Positions 41,339-47,958 of a stretch of 64,000 bases of DNA are shown here, in pieces. Source of the DNA: a virus (Duplodnaviria; Heunggongvirae; Uroviricota; Caudoviricetes); the IMG/VR virus record IMGVR_UViG_3300033146_002139, positions 39,707-103,706 of that record; one strand, 5' to 3'. Position numbers and translations under genes: made by a program. Position 1 is the stretch's first letter. Every line of letters begins with the position of its first letter. The notes under the pieces were generated by a model. The model saw only the letters and a list, made by a program, of their open reading frames with translations. It made no database searches and had not been told where the DNA came from.

Positions 41339-43999
41339 TTATATATTCCCTTTTATAAATTCAGTCATCATTCGTGGTGTTCCAGTGTCAAAGCCGACAA
41401 AATCCATCATTCCTGCATCAGAAGGGTCTGCTATAGTAAAATCATTTGAGACCATTCCTACAACTATGAGCTGTGCATTTGGTTTATTCATTTGATTTCT
41501 ATATCTTTTTAAGGCTTCAAATGGATGGATTTTTCCTGAGTATGTTTCCGAATCTGTATTACCTGTCCAATAAATAGAGCCTTTTCTTCTTGCGAGCCAA
41601 GTCTTGTTTGGAGTAGTAGGGCACCACACTATGCCATCATGTTCTATCCATTCCGCCTTGAATGGTCTATTATCCTTGTTAGTCGAGTTCTGTAATGGTG
41701 CAAATTGACTTCTTTTAAGAATCCCTATCTCCAAGTAGTTTTTATGATGAGCATTGTCTATTTTAGTATAAGACACCGAATGCCCTGCCAATATACATGC
41801 AAAAGCAAATGAATTCGAACGACTCTCTTCTTTTTGGCAAAACCTATTTTTTTTGAGGTGTCCATCGGCAATCATAGAGGTATGGATAAACAAATTAAGT
41901 TGTTCTTTCGTTAACTCCCTAAACCAATCAAGTTTAATGGATTTGTCGTTTTCCATTAGGTTTATAAAAGCACTAGAACCTTTCTTGTTTATATAAAAAA
42001 CAGTCATATCTTCTTTTGGACAATCTTCTCTCCATTCTCTATTGGCCTGTTCTTTGCTTAACGACTCTTTTGAGGCTCCGAGATAATCGTTTAGAGCCAA
42101 TCTGATTTTTTCCACATTCCTAGGATTTGCTTTGTGTGATTGAGAAAAATTAATTGATTTTGACGGAGATATGTAGCCTTCGGTATATATCCATGCTAGT
42201 AATTCTACAAATGAGTTTGACCATTTTTCTTTAACGGGGAGATTACTATCCTGAGCAGAACACTGAATATAATCAACTTTATTTAAAGTTTCTGATGTTT
42301 TCCATCTCCTTCCCCATGCTTCTTCGTTGGATTTATTTGTCGTTCTGTTTTTAACTGGCCATCTGTGATTTGCAGTTGACAAGGAAGAATGCCCCCTTCC
42401 TTCTATGTGTAACATTTTTCTTTTAGCCTTTGGAAATATATTTATTGAAGAAGCATTCTGCCATTCACCATTTCCATTTTCATGATTCAGCGTATACAGT
42501 TCTTCGTTTTCTTTTAAATTATCATACGATTTCCATCCTTCCGATGTTAATATCTCTGTTTCTTCGTCAACACAATACACTATAAATGTATCTATATCCA
42601 TTTTCTTCTCTATAGCATGCATCATTGGAAGTGCACAGTCTGTACCCCTAAAATCTAAACCTTTAACACTGTCTATTATTTTAGGCATATCCATCTTTGG
42701 AGAGATATTTAGTTCCGTTAATGCCGAAGCTCCCCATCCACCATTGCCACCATTACCGCCACCAGCGAAAGCTGTAACTACATAATTTCTCTCAGTTCTT
42801 GCAGTAACCATTGCCATTGCCGCAGAAGCTGTTCTTGGTGTTAATACAGACGACCCTGAAATATTGCTCCATGTCATAGACCCTGATACATCAAGTGCTA
42901 ACATAATATTTTTTCCGGTACTTTCAACATTGCCAAATGATAAGTAAAAAGCTTCATCCAATGCATCAAGTATTCTTTGATTGTGTTTCCATGTTAAGTT
43001 TCCTTTAACTCCACTGCCTGATGCATATACAAGTGTAGCATCTAATAGTTGTAATGGATGTACTCTTGATTTTTTAATTAACTCGGCATTAGTCAATTTA
43101 TCCTCTATAAAGGAAAGTGTTTTCATATCGCTATTAGATATCAATCCACTAGCTGTAAATTTTCCAAGACTTCTAATTATAGCTGTTAGACCTAGATTTT
43201 GTAAAAGAGCTTTTTGAACCTTAGCAGATGTTCTAAACTCTGTTCCAATCATTTCTTCTGTTAATCTGTATTCGTTGATAATAGAGATAATTTCTTTTTC
43301 ATTATCACACATCTTTGCAAGCTCAAATCCTTTTAAAAACTTAAAGTCCGCATCATGTTTTAATTCTTCGGAAATTTCTCCGGTAATAGCATATTTGTAT
43401 AATGCTGAATATCTATTGTCCAATGGAGTAATATGATTTAATCTTAAAAGGTCTTTATGATTCCATCCGTTTCTATTTCTATACTTTACCATTTGGAAAG
43501 TAAGTTTATCAAGTGGCTTATCATACCATTTTGCAAAAGCCGCTTTAACTGTAGTTCCCCATCCTCTTAAAGATTTTATCATAGAGGCAAACTCAAACAA
43601 GTGAGTTCCTATTCTTGCTACCTTGTGCAGGTTTTCTACAACATAAGCTTTTTCTTCATTTGTTCCATATGTCAATACTAAAGCCATAGCATATAATGCT
43701 TGGTCGTTTTTTCTAGCTCTACCATCTTTAGAAATTTCAATAGCTTTACTTGCTACAAGAACCCCTTGTCCATCTTTTATCATATTGATAATATGGTTGG
43801 AGTTTTCTTTTGTAAGTTTTTTTGGTGATGCATAATAGCTTCCACCTTCAGAACCTAGTATTAAAAATCTAAGTAATTTTTGTTCGTCTGTAACTCTAAA
43901 AACAAAACCATTTTCACTGTTTTTTACTTGTCCTGTTTTAGCTTTTGTTTTTTGATGTGTAGGTTTGTTTCTCGTTCCTAAATCTGCATAAATTGACAT
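41339..43999 (-). CDS. rsr: Ro60 (TROVE + vWA) RNA-binding protein, intein-containing precursor (547 aa after splicing)
   Basis: NSENGFVF, LRFLILGSEGGSYY, KYRNRNGWNHKDLLRL, SRVHP, vWA MIDAS LALDVSGSM, GTDCALPM and FIVY|TDSET. Confidence 0.95.
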   Translation of the reverse strand: MSIYADLGTRNKPTHQKTKAKTGQVKNSENGFVFRVTDEQKLLRFLILGSEGGSYYASPKKLTKENSNHIINMIKDGQGVLVASKAIEISKDGRARKNDQALYAMALVLTYGTNEEKAYVVENLHKVARIGTHLFEFASMIKSLRGWGTTVKAAFAKWYDKPLDKLTFQMVKYRNRNGWNHKDLLRLNHITPLDNRYSALYKYAITGEISEELKHDADFKFLKGFELAKMCDNEKEIISIINEYRLTEEMIGTEFRTSAKVQKALLQNLGLTAIIRSLGKFTASGLISNSDMKTLSFIEDKLTNAELIKKSRVHPLQLLDATLVYASGSGVKGNLTWKHNQRILDALDEAFYLSFGNVESTGKNIMLALDVSGSMTWSNISGSSVLTPRTASAAMAMVTARTERNYVVTAFAGGGNGGNGGWGASALTELNISPKMDMPKIIDSVKGLDFRGTDCALPMMHAIEKKMDIDTFIVYCVDEETEILTSEGWKSYDNLKENEELYTLNHENGNGEWQNASSINIFPKAKRKMLHIEGRGHSSLSTANHRWPVKNRTTNKSNEEAWGRRWKTSETLNKVDYIQCSAQDSNLPVKEKWSNSFVELLAWIYTEGYISPSKSINFSQSHKANPRNVEKIRLALNDYLGASKESLSKEQANREWREDCPKEDMTVFYINKKGSSAFINLMENDKSIKLDWFRELTKEQLNLFIHTSMIADGHLKKNRFCQKEESRSNSFAFACILAGHSVSYTKIDNAHHKNYLEIGILKRSQFAPLQNSTNKDNRPFKAEWIEHDGIVWCPTTPNKTWLARRKGSIYWTGNTDSETYSGKIHPFEALKRYRNQMNKPNAQLIVVGMVSNDFTIADPSDAGMMDFVGFDTGTPRMMTEFIKGNI
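41558..42574 (-). mobile_element. Intein with LAGLIDADG homing endonuclease, 339 aa
   Basis: Starts CVDEETEIL, has block B TANH, endonuclease motifs LLAWIYTEG and TSMIADG, and ends WTGN followed by Thr. Removing it restores FIVYTDSET. Confidence 0.92.
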
Positions 44000-44030
44000 A
44001 ATCTTTCTCCTTCGGTCAAATTTTTTATTT

Positions 44031-44726
44031 TTATTGTGGTGTTGGCTTTGTATATACTATCTGATTCTCTATTTTTCCCTGAGCACTATAAGCTATTTTT
44101 AAGAAAGCCATATTTCTTTGCTCTGATATTTTTATATCATATTTTGTTGTTAGCATTGTAATTATATCTTTAATAGAGGTGCATTTTAAAAGATTGAATT
44201 TCATATTTAACCACATATCGTTTACACTTGGGTATTTAGCTAGTATATCATCGTAATAATAGTCAACTATTAAACTTATATTATGTATTGATATGTACGT
44301 ATCACCATAGTACACAGTATAAGAATGATGTTCTCTTTTTATCCATTCCGGGTAGTTTTTAGTAGCTTCGTCATGTTTATCGTTAAAATTTTCTATTTCT
44401 TGTAAAAGGGTGTTCATTTTATTATCAGTCTTTTTTTGTTTTTTTAATTTACTAAAAACGTTTGCAAGATTAAAAGAAGAGTGGTTCTTATTGTCTCTTT
44501 TTTTGCGTACTAAATCTCTAAACAGTGTATTAAGTTTTCTAGCTTCTTTGCTTAGTAAAGAAACTATGTTTACAGCATCCCTCCATTCATTGGTTTTCAT
44601 TTTAGCGTCAATCTTATCTCGATAAACTTTTCCTGCCATTGTCTCTATTTGTCTTTTCCATTGACGGAATATTTCAGCCTTATTTTCGTTTAAAAAATCT
44701 ATTATCAATTCGTTGGTTTCTTTCAT
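44031..44726 (-). CDS. Hypothetical protein between the Y RNA and Ro60 genes
   Basis: 231-aa ORF with RBS GAGG. Confidence 0.7.
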   Translation of the reverse strand: MKETNELIIDFLNENKAEIFRQWKRQIETMAGKVYRDKIDAKMKTNEWRDAVNIVSLLSKEARKLNTLFRDLVRKKRDNKNHSSFNLANVFSKLKKQKKTDNKMNTLLQEIENFNDKHDEATKNYPEWIKREHHSYTVYYGDTYISIHNISLIVDYYYDDILAKYPSVNDMWLNMKFNLLKCTSIKDIITMLTTKYDIKISEQRNMAFLKIAYSAQGKIENQIVYTKPTPQ

Positions 44727-44749
44727 AAACCCTCTTTTTTATAAAGTAT

Positions 44750-44815
44750 AAGCTCAACAAGTAGATGCCATGGAATTTATTTTAGACAGATAACCCATTA
44801 GCTTCGGTTGAGCTT
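44750..44815 (-). ncRNA. Classical end-paired Y RNA candidate
   Basis: AAGCTCAAC-[C]-GAA-GCTAATGG-GTTATC...CCATGGC-[ATCTA]-CTT-GTTGAGCTT: 9-bp terminal stem, bulged C and opposite-strand bulge. Exact ends are uncertain. Confidence 0.75.
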
Positions 44816-44837
44816 TTATATTATTTATTAGTAGTAA

Positions 44838-44909
44838 TAGACCCACAAGGAATCGAACCTCGATTAATTGCACCAAAAGCAATTGTGCTAACCATTACAC
44901 TACAGGTCT
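44838..44909 (-). tRNA. tRNA-Gln(TTG)
   Basis: Cloverleaf with anticodon arm ATTGC-TTTTGGT-GCAAT and T loop TTCGATT; no encoded CCA. Confidence 0.9.
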
Positions 44910-44914
44910 GTTTG

Positions 44915-44999
44915 TGCACTCAGAGGGATTCGAACCCTCATTTCCTTTCAGAAGCCAGCTTCTAAGGCTGGTGCGTCTGCCCAGTTCCGCCACGAGTAC
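44915..44999 (-). tRNA. tRNA-Leu(TAG)
   Basis: CCAGC-CTTAGAA-GCTGG, long variable arm, T loop TTCGAAT. Confidence 0.92.
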
Positions 45000-45020
45000 A
45001 TATGTTAAATTGTTTTTTCC

Positions 45021-45106
45021 TCAGTGCAGTACGGACTTCCACCGTTAGCTCTTATAGTTAGTTTCCGGCTTTAACTATAAGTTCACCCCTGAACATTTCG
45101 AGTGTT
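45021..45106 (-). ncRNA. Unidentified structured element between tRNA-Pro and tRNA-Leu
   Basis: Three hairpins, including a perfect 10-bp stem CTTATAGTTA/TAACTATAAG and ACGG-TGGAAGT-CCGT. Confidence 0.35.
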
Positions 45107-45220
45107 AAGTATTGGCTATCTTTATTTTATTGTTCAGTGTTTAAAATAGCAAAACCACGATATACTCTTTTTTATCTTCGATGCATCTAGGATAAAGGAT
45201 AAATATAAAAACCCTTATAG

Positions 45221-45294
45221 TCAGGATAGCTGGACTCGAACCAGCGTGACCTCCGCCCCAAACGGAGTGAGACAACCAACTGCTCTATATCCTG
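45221..45294 (-). tRNA. tRNA-Pro(TGG)
   Basis: Acceptor CAGGATA/TATCCTG, CTCCG-TTTGGGG-CGGAG, T loop TTCGAGT. Confidence 0.92.
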
Positions 45295-45299
45295 GTATT

Positions 45300-45785
45300 T
45301 TAATACTTCAGTATTCCTACATGAAACTCTTTGTGGTGAGTCGGACATAATACATCAAGATTTTTAATGTCATTATTCTTTCTATCGCAATCTCTATGGT
45401 GAACTTGAAGAACTTTGACTACAGCATATCCACATATTGAACACTTCTTGTTGTAAAACTCTAAAGCCTTTCTTCTATAAGACCATTTTCCACCTTTATA
45501 ATTCGGATGATTAATTCCTGTCCTATAGTGCTTATTATTAAAAGATGCTGAACAACTCCTACTACAAAAAAATCTATTGGACTTGCTGTTTTTAGCCATA
45601 GAGCTCGTTACATACACATCCTTTCCACAATGACTACATTTTTTATCGTTTCCCATTTTCTTTGAATCAAGGTTACACTTTGTACTGCAAAAGTATTTAT
45701 AATTTTGTTTTTTATAGTATTTTACTATTTTTGCTTCTTTCTCAAAGACTGCATTACAATGAGAACAACTGACTTTTGTTTTCAT
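45300..45785 (-). CDS. HNH endonuclease with zinc-finger repeats
   Basis: CSHC and FCS..C repeats; CSICG...LQVHHRDCDRKNNDIKNLDVLCPTHH. Confidence 0.88.
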   Translation of the reverse strand: MKTKVSCSHCNAVFEKEAKIVKYYKKQNYKYFCSTKCNLDSKKMGNDKKCSHCGKDVYVTSSMAKNSKSNRFFCSRSCSASFNNKHYRTGINHPNYKGGKWSYRRKALEFYNKKCSICGYAVVKVLQVHHRDCDRKNNDIKNLDVLCPTHHKEFHVGILKY

Positions 45786-45798
45786 AAATTCCTTATGT

Positions 45799-45840
45799 CC
45801 TCGCCCAAACGAGGAGGCTTACCAATTAGCCCACCACCAG
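45799..45840 (-). pseudogene. 5' half of a second tRNA-Pro (truncated)
   Basis: CTGGTGG-TG-GGCT-AATTGGTA-AGCC-T-CCTCG-TTTGGG-CGAGG, followed by the RBS and ATG of the HNH gene. The T arm and 3' acceptor strand are absent. Confidence 0.7.
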
Positions 45841-45847
45841 GTATTTG

Positions 45848-45930
45848 CAGAAGATAAGAGACTCGAACTCCCAAGTCATTTCTGACGACAGTTTAGCAAA
45901 CTGCTTCCTTACCAATTAGGGTAATCTTCT
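45848..45930 (-). tRNA. tRNA-Ser(GCT)
   Basis: Acceptor AGAAGAT/ATCTTCT, GCAGT-TTGCTAA-ACTGT, long variable arm. Confidence 0.9.
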
Positions 45931-46000
45931 GTGTTGCCTTACACTACTGACAAATAGTGCAAGGACTTTTTTTTGTTCATTATATATTATTTTTAAGGTG

Positions 46001-46204
46001 CTATGCTTTCTTCGATGGTAAAATCTTATACATTCCTGTACCACAATCAGGACATTTTCCTTTCATTGCAGGTCTGCCATTTTTCATAACAACCTCTTCT
46101 GTTTCGCTCATAATCTTTTTGGCTTTGCATTTAACACAATAGCCTTCTTTAGGGTCTTTTACTTCACTCATTTTCATTTCCTCATTTTGTTTTTGGTTTG
46201 ACAT
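46001..46204 (-). CDS. DUF5679-like zinc-ribbon protein
   Basis: GYCVKCK...MKNGRPAMKGKCPDCGTGMYKI; the real start may be the internal MSEVK. Confidence 0.75.
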   Translation of the reverse strand: MSNQKQNEEMKMSEVKDPKEGYCVKCKAKKIMSETEEVVMKNGRPAMKGKCPDCGTGMYKILPSKKA

Positions 46205-46230
46205 TTATATTAAAATGCTTACAATCTTTA

Positions 46231-46351
46231 CTTGGATGACGAGATTCGAACTCGCATCACTCTATTAGAATTAGATAACGATTTTCATTCGGCTTGTGAA
46301 AGCAATAGTTAAAAATCGGGTTTAGTGTTCTACCAATTAAACTACATCCAA
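46231..46351 (-). ncRNA. tRNA-scaffold Y RNA candidate 1
   Basis: Acceptor TTGGATG/CATCCAA, D arm and T loop TTCGAAT. The anticodon arm is replaced by CGATTTTTA-[ACTA]-TT-GCTT-TCAC-AAGC-[C]-GAA-TGAAAATCG-TTATC. Confidence 0.8.
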
Positions 46352-46368
46352 GTATTTTTAATAGTTGT

Positions 46369-46492
46369 ACAAGAGAGAGGGACTCGAACCCCCGACCGCC
46401 TTATTAACTGTAAGATAAAGAATTTCATTCGGTCCGTGAAGACAAATAGTTGAAATTCGTTTTAGTGCTCTAACCATCTGAGCTACCTCTTG
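46369..46492 (-). ncRNA. tRNA-scaffold Y RNA candidate 2
   Basis: Acceptor CAAGAGG/TCTCTTG, GCTC/GAGC D stem, T loop TTCGAGT. Insert GAATTTCA-[ACTA]-TTT-GTC-TTCACG-GAC-[C]-GAA-TGAAATTC-TTTATC. Confidence 0.82.
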
Positions 46493-46501
46493 TACTTTGT
46501 G

Positions 46502-46646
46502 CCGAGAAGGCAGGAATTGAACCTGCGACACGTAATTCCGATAACCAATTACTCCGGCTTAAAAACTAATCTTGTAGGATTACGACATTTAAACGAATAA
46601 TGTAATTGAATTTATATTAATGCTCTACCAACTGAGCTACTTCTCG
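46502..46646 (-). ncRNA. tRNA-scaffold Y RNA candidate 3
   Basis: Acceptor CGAGAAG/CTTCTCG, T loop TTCAATT. Insert CAATTAC-[ATTA]-TTC-GTTTAAA...TTTAAGC-[C]-GGA-GTAATTG-GTTATC. Confidence 0.8.
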
Positions 46647-46663
46647 ATATGTTTGTTTAATTT

Positions 46664-46873
46664 TTAAAGATGTCTATCGTCTTTCTCACTATACTCATGC
46701 TCGAACCTCGGTCGAACCTTGTCGTATTCCTCTTTAATGAGTCTATCTACTATTGCAGATTGGTCTTCATTTTTAGAGAAGAAAGCTAGTTCCTTAATGA
46801 GGCTTATAGACTTCAAGGACAAACTAAACGTTTTATTGTTTTTTTTCATTTGTTTTATTGTTTTTCTTTTCAT
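46664..46873 (-). CDS. Ribbon-helix-helix DNA-binding protein
   Basis: KTFSLS (beta strand), helix, then QSAIVDRLIKEE. Confidence 0.6.
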   Translation of the reverse strand: MKRKTIKQMKKNNKTFSLSLKSISLIKELAFFSKNEDQSAIVDRLIKEEYDKVRPRFEHEYSEKDDRHL

Positions 46874-46897
46874 TTATTTGCTATTAGATTAAATTGG

Positions 46898-46927
46898 GGT
46901 GAGGAAGCCTATCCTTGCTTCCCCACC
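46898..46927 (-). terminator. GC-rich hairpin, terminator or processing signal
   Basis: GGTGGGGAAGC-AAGGATAG-GCTTCCTCACC, an 11-bp stem with a weak T tract. Confidence 0.5.
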
Positions 46928-46974
46928 AAGTTAGTTAAATTGCATTATAGATTCGCAGTCTATTGCATTCTGAG

Positions 46975-47215
46975 TTTTTGCCTATCAAAGATTAAATTGT
47001 GATTTGCTATTACTAAGAGTCATGCTCTACCACTGAGCTATTCCGGGATATTTTCTTATGCTTCTTAGACCCGGAAATTGGATTTGAACCAACGACACAA
47101 ACTTAATTTTTATCACATGCTTAGACTTTTTACGGCTACTATTCGGCGATACACTTACACTCAATATAATACTGAATAGCTACTCCACTCATAAGGGAAT
47201 AACTAGGATGACAGA
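46975..47215 (-). ncRNA. Circularly permuted tRNA-like RNA (YrlA-type Y RNA candidate); ends uncertain
   Basis: The order is T arm (GTTGG-TTCAAAT-CCAAT), then acceptor TTCCGGG...CCCGGAA closed by a loop, then D arm (GCTC-AGTGGTA-GAGC). GCCGAATAG lies upstream at 47139-47147. Confidence 0.7.
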
Positions 47216-47220
47216 TAAAA

Positions 47221-47958
47221 CTAACCGAAAATATGTGAAATTATATCTTTACCAACAAAAGAGTCTACAGCGACACATTCATTCGCTCTACTTCTAGCCG
47301 ATTTAATGTCGTTCAAAAGAGCATCTATCTTATTCAAGATTTCAGCTTTTTTTGCAGAATTAACCATACCTGTTTTATGCACGGTATTATAATATCCAAC
47401 CTGCTTAGTTGTTGAGACTTCTTTTATTTGAGCCTTATGCTCTTTAGTCGCCTTGTCTACAACAATAAAGTCTCTTTCTGTTTCTGTTCTATAGACAGGG
47501 ACAGGAGCTGCTTTAAAAGTAAACTTCCTTTCGTCTGCATTGGATTCCCATAATTGAGCAGAATCATATACTGGTATTACGATGGCAACTTCTCTAATTT
47601 TTTTAACTTCTTTTTCTAGGGCTAACAATGCTGTGGCGGATAAAGAGATAGTTTTATCTCCTAGTGTTAATTCTGCTCTAGCATTTCCGGAGCTATTAGT
47701 TTCTTCTTTAGTAATAACGATGTTTATTGCTTTTGCAATAGCCTTTCCGGTGTACTCTAGTCTCTCAGGAACAGTGGTTATTATTTCTTTCCCATCCGGC
47801 GGAATAACAGTTGTATCTTCCACAAGAGTGTGGTATGTTTTACTAAAACCTTGAAAAGGACTTTGTTTTCCAAAAAGACCTCTAGTTTCTGATACGATAT
47901 CTTCAGTTTGTTTACTAACGCCAGGTAATGATGCTAGTACTTCATGTAGTTTTCCCAT
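47221..47958 (-). CDS. Conserved ~245-aa protein (recalled as DUF7873-like)
   Basis: MGKLHEVLA, FQGFSKTY..L.ED, LLALEKEV, AT.EHKAQ, VGYY and ARSRAN match a family I recognise but cannot verify here. Confidence 0.6.
   Translation of the reverse strand: MGKLHEVLASLPGVSKQTEDIVSETRGLFGKQSPFQGFSKTYHTLVEDTTVIPPDGKEIITTVPERLEYTGKAIAKAINIVITKEETNSSGNARAELTLGDKTISLSATALLALEKEVKKIREVAIVIPVYDSAQLWESNADERKFTFKAAPVPVYRTETERDFIVVDKATKEHKAQIKEVSTTKQVGYYNTVHKTGMVNSAKKAEILNKIDALLNDIKSARSRANECVAVDSFVGKDIISHIFG

What the first reader, a model, noticed from the sequence alone, without database searches (positions are those of the whole stretch)
41339..47958. Phage Ro60 locus with five Y-RNA-like genes in three different topologies, interleaved with real tRNAs
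Seen: a Ro60 gene, and within 4 kb upstream on the same strand four tRNAs plus five non-coding elements. Four elements share one bulged helix read directly from the sequence: strand A = ...C-[bulged C]-G(A/G)A-upper stem-TTATC, and strand B = upper stem-[A(C/T)(C)TA bulge]-TT(T/C) or CTT-G. The stems differ in sequence but keep pairing, which is covariation among paralogues. The helix occurs end-paired (44750), capped in place of a tRNA anticodon arm (46231, 46369, 46502), and probably linked to a permuted tRNA body (about 46975-47215). Established: Ro60/Rsr binds Y RNAs at a helix with a single bulged C, and bacterial YrlA RNAs mimic tRNA; Ro60 and YrlA are known from some phages. Inference: this phage builds a family of Ro60 RNPs from one protein and several interchangeable RNA adaptors. 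These may act as anticodon-less tRNA decoys against tRNA-cleaving defences or as tethers for host RNases. No RtcB ligase is visible in the window.
Basis: partly seen in the sequence, partly recalled or inferred. Interest (0 to 1): 0.92.

Follow-up and report, generated by a model that had tools for sequence, protein, structure and literature searches.

The report
tRNA-shaped Y RNAs beside phage Ro60
A 168-kb phage carries a Ro60 gene and, in the tRNA cluster upstream, three tRNA-shaped RNAs bearing the hairpin typical of Ro60's partner (Y) RNAs plus one small classical Y RNA; this layout, the reverse of bacterial YrlA, is common beside Ro60 genes yet absent from Rfam and the papers I could search.

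Summary
Four of the five elements are real Y-class RNAs. E5 (44752-44813) is a 62-nt end-paired mini Y RNA. E1-E3 (46502-46646, 46369-46492, 46231-46351) have normal tRNA order and open acceptor ends, with a loop-capped Y-RNA helix (bulged C, G.U/A-U, upper stem, UUAUC) in the anticodon region. My model finds this design 86 times in 26 of 80 viral and 30 of 80 bacterial Ro60 loci. Every copy is on the Ro60 strand, at a median 468 nt. In two 12-14 Mb genomes all five copies lie near a TROVE gene. Both stems covary.

Three corrections:
- The RNAs are not simply anticodon-less. E3 keeps a 5-bp stem and a 7-nt loop (UCU).
- E4 (about 46895-47223) has no Y helix. It belongs to a different conserved RNA that follows DUF7873 genes in phages mostly lacking Ro60.
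- The genome does encode RtcB, outside the window.

Ro60 is interrupted by a LAGLIDADG intein. Rfam sees only "tRNA", and I found no published description. Earlier runs of this scan noted the same design on other DNA. Binding, expression and function remain untested.

The parts
41339..43999 (-). Ro60 (TROVE + vWA) gene, 886 codons, host of an intein
   Evidence: Pfam TROVE and vWA_Ro60, the latter in two stretches. Best relatives are 49% identical and 530-560 aa long.
41522..42511 (-). Intein with LAGLIDADG-type domain (aa 497-826) inside the vWA motif
   Evidence: The insert starts with Cys, ends with Asn and is followed by Thr. Removing it restores FIVY-TDSET, matching the family consensus VYTDNET. 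The Atlas structure search gives TM 0.74-0.81 to inserts in NrdD, portal, helicase and other phage proteins carrying LAGLIDADG_3. Pfam, NCBIfam and PDB sequence searches did not flag it.
44031..44726 (-). ORF of 231 aa between E5 and Ro60, no known family
   Evidence: No Pfam, PHROG or NCBIfam hit. Absent from 80 other viral Ro60 loci.
44752..44813 (-). E5: end-paired mini Y RNA; bulged C at 44806
   Evidence: Model R2, built from 19 mini Y RNAs of other phage Ro60 loci, scores it 39 bits, E 4.8e-7. It is the only hit in the window. Rfam nematode sbRNA (a Y RNA homologue) scores 28.3 bits, below its gathering score of 38. Fold z-score is -3.1.
44838..44999 (-). tRNA-Gln(UUG) and tRNA-Leu(UAG)
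   Evidence: ARAGORN and Rfam.
45220..45294 (-). tRNA-Pro(UGG)
   Evidence: ARAGORN; Rfam 46.2 bits.
45847..45930 (-). tRNA-Ser(GCU)
   Evidence: ARAGORN and Rfam.
46231..46351 (-). E3: tRNA-shaped Y RNA. Y arm 46274-46319, bulged C 46291. Keeps a split 5-bp anticodon stem and a 7-nt loop AUUCUAA.
   Evidence: Rfam tRNA 44.7 bits with a 62-nt insert. R1 111 bits, but E3 is in the seed. R3, with no window sequence in its seed, 18.5 bits, E 0.0076. Parses.
46369..46492 (-). E2: tRNA-shaped Y RNA. Y arm 46414-46459, bulged C 46431. Followed by a hairpin with loop CAGUUAA.
   Evidence: Rfam tRNA 36.0 bits. R1 99 bits, in the seed. R3 15 bits, E 0.077. Parses.
46502..46646 (-). E1: tRNA-shaped Y RNA. 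Y arm 46540-46609, bulged C 46556. The 7-bp lower stem is extended by an extra hairpin, and the helix sits inside a 4-bp anticodon-stem remnant.
   Evidence: Rfam tRNA 46.1 bits with a 79-nt insert. R1 62 bits, E 7e-13, not in the seed. Fold z-score -3.2. Parse. Not found by R3.
46895..47223 (-). E4: about 330-nt structured RNA with one circularly permuted tRNA module (47024-47093) and a terminal hairpin (46898-46927). A partner of the DUF7873 gene, not a Y RNA.
   Evidence: Descriptor hit: T arm, 7-bp closed acceptor, UA, D arm. Rfam YrlA 29.7 bits against a gathering score of 69. No Y helix. Conserved with compensatory changes downstream of DUF7873 orthologues in L179 and L180. Six of 8 diverse DUF7873 phages have the same module, and 7 of those 8 lack TROVE.
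47221..47958 (-). DUF7873 protein gene
   Evidence: Pfam 6.5e-57. Present in 71 phage records. AF2 model pLDDT 82, with no PDB fold match.

Best explanation
E1, E2, E3 and E5 are partner RNAs (Y-RNA class) of the phage's Ro60 protein.

E5 is a minimal Y RNA. Its 5' and 3' ends pair to form the helix with the bulged C that marks Ro60's partner RNAs.

E1-E3 are a second design. Each is a complete tRNA body in normal gene order (acceptor, D arm, T arm, free 5' and 3' ends). The same Y helix, closed by a loop, is grafted between the D arm and the T arm. This is the circular permutation of YrlA.

Inferred steps:
- They are transcribed with the neighbouring tRNAs.
- RNase P and RNase Z cut them out like tRNAs, and the host adds CCA.
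- Ro60, once its intein has spliced out, binds the Y arm.
- The tRNA body then serves as a handle for tRNA-handling proteins. This would link Ro60 to tRNA surveillance, repair or decay during infection. The genome also encodes the ligase RtcB.

Shown here: sequence anatomy, covariation, family membership and genome-wide linkage to Ro60.

Inferred only: processing, binding and function.

E4 is not part of this system. It belongs with DUF7873.
For: Anatomy:
- The shared helix was read in all four elements, with different but pairing stems.
- The tRNA core nucleotides and the three tRNA stems are intact.

Family:
- Model R1 finds 86 insert-bearing copies in 26 of 80 viral and 30 of 80 bacterial Ro60 loci.
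- All 86 are on the Ro60 strand. Median distance is 468 nt and 90% lie within 1.16 kb.
- E1, not in the seed, scores 62 bits.

Covariation:
- All 9 upper-stem pairs and 4 lower-stem pairs show compensatory changes.
- The G.U next to the bulged C is kept in 33 of 37 sequences.

Genome-wide specificity:
- In two genomes of 13.8 and 12.4 Mb, all 5 long hits lie 0.8-6 kb from one of 4 TROVE genes.
- The phage's own 168 kb holds only E1-E3.

E5:
- R2 scores it 39 bits, the only hit in the window.
- R2 hits 85 times in 56 of 80 viral Ro60 loci, always on the Ro60 strand, and never in 8 DUF7873 loci.

tRNA-like 3' end:
- CCA is encoded after 11 of 86 copies, against 1.6% expected by chance.

Context:
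- RtcB is present in the genome.

Published facts:
- Ro60 binds a bulged helix of Y RNAs. YrlA mimics tRNA. Phage Ro60 binds phage Y-like RNAs (PMC4201824, 10.1101/312249, PMC12135203).
Against: - There are no expression, end-mapping or binding data. No sequencing run could be listed.
- E2 and E3 have lower stems of only 4 bp, shorter than in studied Y RNAs.
- R3, the only model of the Y arm alone, has just 4 modelled pairs. It gives modest scores (18.5 and 15 bits) and misses E1.
- R1 scores for E2 and E3 are high by construction, because both are in the seed.
- Ordinary tRNAs can reach about 60 bits with R1, so E1's score alone does not discriminate.
- The pair counts rest on a model-fitted alignment.
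- E1-E3 lie 2.2-2.6 kb from Ro60, at the far end of the family's range.
- Promoter and terminator scans were no better than shuffles.
Confidence: 0.75

Rival explanations
1. E1-E3 are working tRNAs. Either they decode with an extra arm, or they are intron-containing precursors whose insert is removed. E3 would then be a tRNA-Arg(UCU).
For: - E3 has a 5-bp anticodon stem and a 7-nt loop with U33, UCU and A37.
- In the family, 33 of 73 members keep a 7-nt loop framed C32-U33-NNN-A37-A38.
- The phage has no other tRNA-Arg(UCU) although its DNA is 33% G+C.
- ARAGORN in intron mode calls all three.
Against: - E1 has no anticodon loop, and E2 has A at position 33.
- The point of insertion varies from 26/27 to 31/32 across the family.
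- The inserts are 62-79 nt here, with neither group I size nor any bulge-helix-bulge motif seen.
- Members with Ser, Leu or Tyr triplets (7 of 33) have only 2-8 nt where a long variable arm is needed.
- It is the insert that is conserved and linked to Ro60.
- E3 has U20 where ArgRS identity (my own knowledge, E. coli) needs A20.
- ARAGORN's isotype calls (Pyl, Val, Asp) do not correspond to real anticodon stems.
Confidence: 0.07
2. The tRNA-shaped Y RNAs act mainly as decoys. They offer a generic anticodon loop and tRNA body to host tRNA-cleaving defence nucleases. Ro60 then captures the enzyme or the cut RNA.
For: - The anticodon-loop frame is conserved while the triplet is free, with 25 different triplets among 33 loops.
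- The elements sit inside a phage tRNA cluster.
- RtcB is present in the genome.
- Phage tRNA sets and RNA repair as counter-defence are established ideas (PMC7824862).
Against: - The same design is common in bacterial chromosomal Ro60 loci.
- More than half of the members, including E1, lack an anticodon-like loop.
- No nuclease is identified and nothing was tested.
Confidence: 0.15
3. E4 is a third kind of Ro60 partner, a YrlA-type RNA.
For: - It has permuted tRNA order with a closed 7-bp acceptor, as in YrlA.
- Its Rfam YrlA score of 29.7 bits is the best YrlA score in the region.
- A GCCGAA motif is invariant in three orthologues.
- It lies 3 kb from Ro60 on the same strand.
- One DUF7873 phage, Rhizobium phage TM21B, also has a TROVE gene 5 kb away.
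Against: - The score is far below the gathering score of 69.
- There is no Y helix. R2 gives at most 2.7 bits, although it finds end-paired helices enclosing about 125 nt elsewhere.
- The RNA follows DUF7873 in the closest relative, where the next gene is SSB and no Ro60 lies within 4.7 kb.
- Seven of 8 DUF7873 phages have no TROVE gene.
- DUF7873 is absent from 80 viral Ro60 loci.
Confidence: 0.12
4. E1-E3 are decaying tRNA pseudogenes with chance insertions and no function.
For: Phage tRNA clusters do hold degenerate copies. A truncated tRNA-Pro lies nearby (45797-45838).
Against: - The family is conserved across phyla with compensatory changes in the insert.
- It shows strict strand and distance linkage to Ro60.
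Confidence: 0.03

Closest known systems
YrlA (Y RNA-like A; Rfam RF02553; Chen et al. 2014 PMC4201824; Wang et al. 2018 10.1101/312249)
   Same: - A Ro60-linked RNA that joins a Y-RNA helix (shared ACUUG and C-GA motifs) to a tRNA-like body with D and T arms.
- Encoded near Ro60 and near tRNAs.
- Known from phages.
   Different: - YrlA has the T arm before the D arm, a loop-closed acceptor stem and no free CCA end. Its Ro60 helix is made by the RNA's two ends.
- E1-E3 have normal tRNA order and open acceptor ends. Their Y helix is closed by a loop.
- The Rfam model does not reach its threshold. Its 29.3-bit hit spans the E1/E2 junction.
- Chen et al. discarded hits overlapping tandem tRNA genes, which would have removed this class.
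Small Y RNAs: vertebrate Y RNAs, nematode sbRNAs, Thermus phage phiLo Yrl1/Yrl2 (PMC12135203)
   Same: E5 has the end-paired stem, bulged C, CGAA and UUAUC. It gives a weak Rfam match to a nematode sbRNA family.
   Different: - E5 is only 62 nt.
- It falls below every Rfam gathering score.
- Ro60 binding has not been tested for this phage.
D. radiodurans Yrn1
   Same: A Y RNA with some tRNA-like features in D-then-T order (PMC4201824).
   Different: In Yrn1 the Ro60 helix takes the place of the acceptor stem. In E1-E3 it takes the anticodon side, and the acceptor is a true 7-bp stem.
DUF7873-linked permuted tRNA-like RNA (unnamed; for E4 only)
   Same: - It lies directly 3' of a DUF7873 gene on the same strand.
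- It has a T arm, a closed 7-bp acceptor, UA and a D arm.
- It sits inside phage tRNA clusters.
   Different: The Gordonia, Arthrobacter and Rhodococcus phage versions show two tandem modules. I found only one in the window.

Membership tests
Y RNA class (Ro60 partner RNAs) | Helix with a single bulged C followed by G.U and A-U pairs, and a bulge on the opposite strand | tested here: met
   Met for E1, E2, E3 and E5. Not met for E4.
Y RNA class (Ro60 partner RNAs) | Encoded next to a Ro60/TROVE gene | tested here: met
   E5 is 0.75 kb and E1-E3 are 2.2-2.6 kb upstream, on the same strand. Family-wide linkage is shown.
Y RNA class (Ro60 partner RNAs) | Physical binding to Ro60 | not testable with these tools
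   Needs EMSA or RIP.
Y RNA class (Ro60 partner RNAs) | Reaches the gathering score of an Rfam Y RNA family | tested here: not met
   E5 scores 28.3 bits against 38 for ceN72-3_ceN74-2. No RF00019 hit at E up to 10.
YrlA (RF02553) | Permuted order (T arm 5' of D arm) with a loop-closed acceptor stem | tested here: not met
   E1-E3 have normal order and open acceptors. E4 alone meets this feature.
YrlA (RF02553) | Ro60-binding helix formed by the 5' and 3' ends | tested here: not met
   The helix is capped by a loop in E1-E3. It is absent from E4.
YrlA (RF02553) | Rfam gathering score of 69 bits | tested here: not met
   Scores are 29.7, 29.3 and 16.7 bits.
tRNA (RF00005) | Acceptor, D and T arms with core nucleotides; gathering score of 29 bits | tested here: met
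   Scores are 46.1, 36.0 and 44.7 bits.
tRNA (RF00005) | Uninterrupted 5-bp anticodon stem with a 7-nt loop | tested here: not met
   Inserts are 62-79 nt. E3 keeps a split stem and a 7-nt loop, E2 a variant, E1 none.
tRNA (RF00005) | Aminoacylation and decoding | not testable with these tools
   Family members with Ser, Leu or Tyr triplets lack a long variable arm, which argues against decoding.
tRNA-shaped Y RNA (unnamed family defined here by model R1) | tRNA order, open acceptor, loop-capped Y arm plus UUAUC between the D and T arms, on the Ro60 strand | tested here: met
   E1 scores 62 bits and is not in the seed. E2 and E3 are in the seed. There are 86 relatives.
DUF7873-linked RNA (for E4) | Permuted tRNA module within about 0.5 kb 3' of a DUF7873 gene, on the same strand | tested here: met
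   The window module starts 128 nt after the stop codon. Six of 8 other phages and 2 close relatives show the same.
DUF7873-linked RNA (for E4) | Two tandem permuted modules | tested here: inconclusive
   Seen in Ziko, Racecar and NiceHouse. Only one was found in the window.
Intein | Cys at residue 1, terminal Asn, +1 Thr/Ser/Cys; excision restores the host motif; Hint and homing-endonuclease fold | tested here: met
   The penultimate residue is Gly rather than His. Sequence profiles did not detect it.

The most novel reading that the evidence does not exclude
tRNA-shaped Y RNAs are the unpermuted form from which YrlA arose. Two tandem units, read from the 3' half of one to the 5' half of the next, give exactly the YrlA order. 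Rfam's YrlA model already scores the E1/E2 junction.

In phages they would work as CCA-ended tRNA look-alikes. They would carry Ro60 onto the tRNA-handling machinery: the repair ligase RtcB, processing enzymes or host anticodon nucleases. This would protect translation during infection.
Probability: 0.25. Interest if true: 0.85.

Novelty: new variant of a known kind. Interest (0 to 1): 0.7.

Why it matters
Ro60 and its Y RNAs are conserved from bacteria to humans, yet partner RNAs are known for few bacteria. Chen et al. found few YrlAs in delta-proteobacteria and cyanobacteria.

The tRNA-ended design seen here lies beside Ro60 in about a third of the phage and bacterial loci I sampled, including Sorangium and Polyangium. 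In 15 such loci Rfam reports only tRNA hits. It may therefore be the missing partner in many species. Tools that call it a tRNA would miss it, as would the filter that removed tandem tRNAs.

It also gives the published idea that YrlA arose from dimeric tRNA transcripts a concrete living intermediate. An RNA with a free acceptor end is open to RNase P, the CCA-adding enzyme and perhaps synthetases. YrlA lacks such an end.

The separate pairing of a permuted tRNA-like RNA with DUF7873 hints at a second, Ro60-independent RNP of the same style.

Tried and rejected
- Single-sequence locus searches for Ro60 and DUF7873 in viral contigs found nothing close. Alignments or tblastn were needed.
- RNAalifold on MAFFT alignments recovered only the tRNA stems or only the lower stem. 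MAFFT misregisters the variable upper stem, so I parsed helices by script and set R1's structure by hand.
- R3 is therefore a weak model.
- ARAGORN's intron mode labels (Pyl, Val, Asp) were rejected as artefacts.
- E4 as YrlA was rejected.
- The promoter and terminator scan was no better than shuffles.
- The DUF7873 fold search in PDB gave no match above TM 0.25.
- Pfam, NCBIfam, PHROGs and PDB sequence searches did not recognise the intein or the 231-aa ORF.
- The region 45000-45225 folds no better than shuffles.
- Burroughs and Aravind 2016 and the 2020 Annual Review on bacterial Ro60 are not held, so I could not read them. The supplements of Chen et al. are not held either.
- Protein-complex prediction was not used, because the open question concerns RNA-protein binding.

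Full report
**Setting.** The window is bases 39707-103706 of a 167,706-bp virus record with direct terminal repeats. Its G+C content is 33% and it holds 11 ordinary tRNA genes. No close relative is in the phage collection. All parts of the finding lie on the minus strand.

**Ro60.** The ORF 41339-43999 matches TROVE (3.8e-28) and the Ro60 vWA domain (5.7e-54). The vWA match comes in two stretches.
- Relatives are 530-560 aa long and at most 49% identical. tblastn finds Ro60 in 408 phage records, always as two pieces.
- The extra 330 residues (aa 497-826, window 41522-42511) begin with Cys, end with Asn and are followed by Thr.
- Removing them joins FIVY to TDSET, which matches the family consensus VYTDNET.
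- The Atlas model of this segment superposes at TM 0.74-0.81 on inserts in phage NrdD, portal, helicase and other proteins carrying LAGLIDADG_3.
- It is therefore an intein with a homing-endonuclease domain, although sequence profiles missed it.

**The four helix-bearing elements.** ARAGORN finds four tRNAs. Rfam's tRNA model also hits 46502-46646 (E1, 46.1 bits), 46369-46492 (E2, 36.0 bits) and 46231-46351 (E3, 44.7 bits). These carry inserts of 79, 65 and 62 nt where the anticodon arm should be.
- Reading and folding and a scripted parse show the same module in each insert. In order, it runs: upper-stem strand, a 4-5-nt bulge, UU (UC in E1), lower-stem strand, closing loop, lower-stem strand, one bulged C, GA (GG in E1), upper-stem strand, UUAUC.
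- E2 and E3 have 4-bp lower stems closed by UCAC. E1 has a 7-bp lower stem that continues into an extra hairpin.
- E5 (44752-44813) has the same helix with the opposite connectivity: its two ends form a 9-bp lower stem.
- E5 also gives a sub-threshold match (28.3 bits against 38) to a nematode stem-bulge RNA family. Such RNAs are Y RNA homologues (the homology is my own knowledge).

**Is this a family?** I fetched 80 viral Ro60 loci.
- ARAGORN in intron mode found 32 tRNA-shaped genes with inserts. Most carry ...ACUUG-stem-loop-stem-C-GA...GGUUAUC. They align with E1-E3, and their tRNA stems covary.
- I built covariance model R1 from 11 of them, with E2 and E3 in the seed and E1 not. It finds E1 at 62 bits.
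- Across the 80 viral and 80 bacterial Ro60 loci it finds 86 insert-bearing copies, in 26 viral and 30 bacterial loci.
- All 86 are on the Ro60 strand. The median distance to Ro60 is 468 nt, 90% lie within 1.16 kb and the maximum is 2.4 kb. Some viral loci are near-duplicates, so the counts are not all independent.
- On the model-fitted alignment all 9 upper-stem pairs and 4 lower-stem pairs show changes on both sides. The G.U next to the bulged C is kept in 33 of 37 sequences. Sliding the partners by one column drops pairing from 95% to about 50%.
- Whole-genome checks give specificity. The phage's own 168 kb holds only E1-E3.
- In a 13.8-Mb Sorangium genome and a 12.4-Mb Polyangium genome, all five long hits lie 0.8-6 kb from one of the four TROVE genes.
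- A weak model of the Y arm alone (R3, no window sequences in its seed, only 4 modelled pairs) ranks the E3 and E2 arms first and second in the 64-kb window, at 18.5 and 15 bits. It misses E1.

**E5.** Model R2 was built from 19 mini Y RNAs of other phages. It scores E5 at 39 bits (E 4.8e-7), its only hit in the window.
- R2 hits 85 times in 56 of the 80 viral Ro60 loci, always on the Ro60 strand, and never in eight DUF7873 loci.
- A phage Ro60 binding small phage-encoded Y-like RNAs has been shown for Thermus phage phiLo (PMC12135203). E5 is therefore a new member of a known kind.

**Not anticodon-less.** In E3 positions 27-28 (CU) and, after the 47-nt insert, CUA pair with UAG-AG. This gives a 5-bp stem around a 7-nt loop AUUCUAA.
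- E2 has a 5-bp hairpin with loop CAGUUAA. E1 has only a 4-bp stem remnant enclosing the whole insert.
- Across 73 parsed family members, 33 have a 7-nt loop after UUAUC. In these, position 32 is C in 24, position 33 is U in 26, position 37 is A in 24 and position 38 is A in 25. The middle triplets number 25 different kinds.
- Seven of the triplets would need a long variable arm (Ser, Leu, Tyr), but only 2-8 nt follow. Decoding is therefore unlikely.
- The frame of an anticodon loop is kept while the anticodon is free.
- CCA is encoded after 11 of 86 copies, against 1.6% expected by chance and 31% of ordinary tRNAs in the same loci. This fits a tRNA-like 3' end.

**E4 is something else.** At 47024-47093 there is a T arm, a 7-bp acceptor stem closed by a 22-nt loop, UA and a D arm. 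This is the YrlA order. Rfam's YrlA model gives only 29.7 bits against a gathering score of 69.
- R2 with filters off finds no Y helix in 46850-47300, although it detects end-paired helices enclosing about 125 nt elsewhere.
- The element starts at the stop codon of a DUF7873 gene (47221-47958).
- DUF7873 is absent from the 80 viral Ro60 loci but present in 71 phage records.
- In 6 of 8 diverse records the same permuted module lies 200-450 nt downstream on the same strand. Seven of the 8 have no TROVE gene.
- In the closest relative (protein 89% identical) the RNA is conserved, the next gene is SSB, and no Ro60 lies within 4.7 kb. A 48%-identical relative keeps the RNA with compensatory changes in the T stem, the acceptor hairpin and the terminal hairpin.
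- The invariant GCCGAA lies inside a closing helix (CUGUCAU with GUAAUAG), not in a terminal bulged helix.
- The DUF7873 model (pLDDT 82) has no PDB fold match.

**Context and literature.** The genome encodes RtcB at G000:165087-166196, outside the window. It has no PF09414 ligase and no CCA-adding enzyme.
- Chen et al. 2014 defined YrlA and explicitly discarded hits overlapping tandem tRNA genes.
- Wang et al. [quoted passage not shown]
- In the window Rfam's YrlA model scores 29.3 bits across the E1/E2 junction. The Y strands of neighbouring units are not complementary, so each unit folds on its own.
- In 15 bacterial loci carrying the tRNA-shaped design, Rfam reports only tRNA.
- Five literature searches found no description of the design. 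Two relevant reviews are not held.
- Earlier runs of this scan reported the same design on other DNA.

**Verdict.** The Ro60 partnership is well supported by comparative evidence but is untested at the bench. The number of Ro60-linked topologies in this window is two, not three. The design is a new variant of the Y RNA/YrlA kind. What the tRNA body does remains inference.

Noticed in passing
window 45797-45838 (-), 45300-45785 (-), 45220-45294 (-): A truncated tRNA-Pro(UGG), holding the acceptor 5' strand, D arm and anticodon arm only, is followed by an HNH endonuclease ORF and then an intact tRNA-Pro(UGG). This looks like the footprint of a homing endonuclease inserted in the tRNA cluster.
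   Followed up: partly
G000:C1:165087-166196 (-), outside the window: The phage encodes a full-length RtcB RNA ligase (368.6 bits), about 80 kb from Ro60. No Rnl-type ligase or CCA-adding enzyme was found.
   Followed up: partly
G000:C1:133852-133960 (+) = L090:1501-1609, outside the window: A fourth tRNA-shaped gene has a roughly 40-nt insert enclosed by a 5-bp anticodon stem. The insert holds a 7-bp hairpin and GGAUUAUC but no bulged-C helix. It lies 48 kb from Ro60.
   Followed up: partly
window 46433-46548 (-): Rfam's YrlA model scores 29.3 bits across the junction of E1 and E2 (T arm of one, D arm of the next). This is the artefact that Chen et al. filtered out, and also the register shift that would turn tandem units into a YrlA.
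   Followed up: partly
window 46898-46927 (-) and about 47150-47160 (-): The DUF7873-linked RNA ends in a hairpin whose stem covaries while its loop CAAGGAUA is invariant in three orthologues. A GCCGAA motif is also invariant. Neither is explained.
   Followed up: partly
window 45051-45081 (-): A 10-bp hairpin between tRNA-Pro and tRNA-Leu has the loop AAGCCGGAAAC, which resembles the AGC-C-GGA strand of E1. The region as a whole folds no better than shuffles.
   Followed up: partly
L104, L109, L112, L168, L169 (bacterial Ro60 loci): Ro60 genes of Polyangiaceae, Sorangium, Chloroflexia and Haliangiales sit inside dense arrays of 15-25 tRNA genes within 9 kb. All are on the Ro60 strand and are interleaved with tRNA-shaped Y RNAs. 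These may be prophages or tRNA-array islands.
   Followed up: no
G000:C1:26467-26539 (+), outside the window: ARAGORN reports a tRNA with an undetermined anticodon, '(tt)', in the phage's other tRNA cluster.
   Followed up: no
window 46001-46204 (-) and 46664-46873 (-): Two small ORFs are interleaved with the RNA genes: DUF5679, a zinc-ribbon-like protein of 67 aa, and a 69-aa ORF with no family. Neither recurs in other Ro60 loci.
   Followed up: partly
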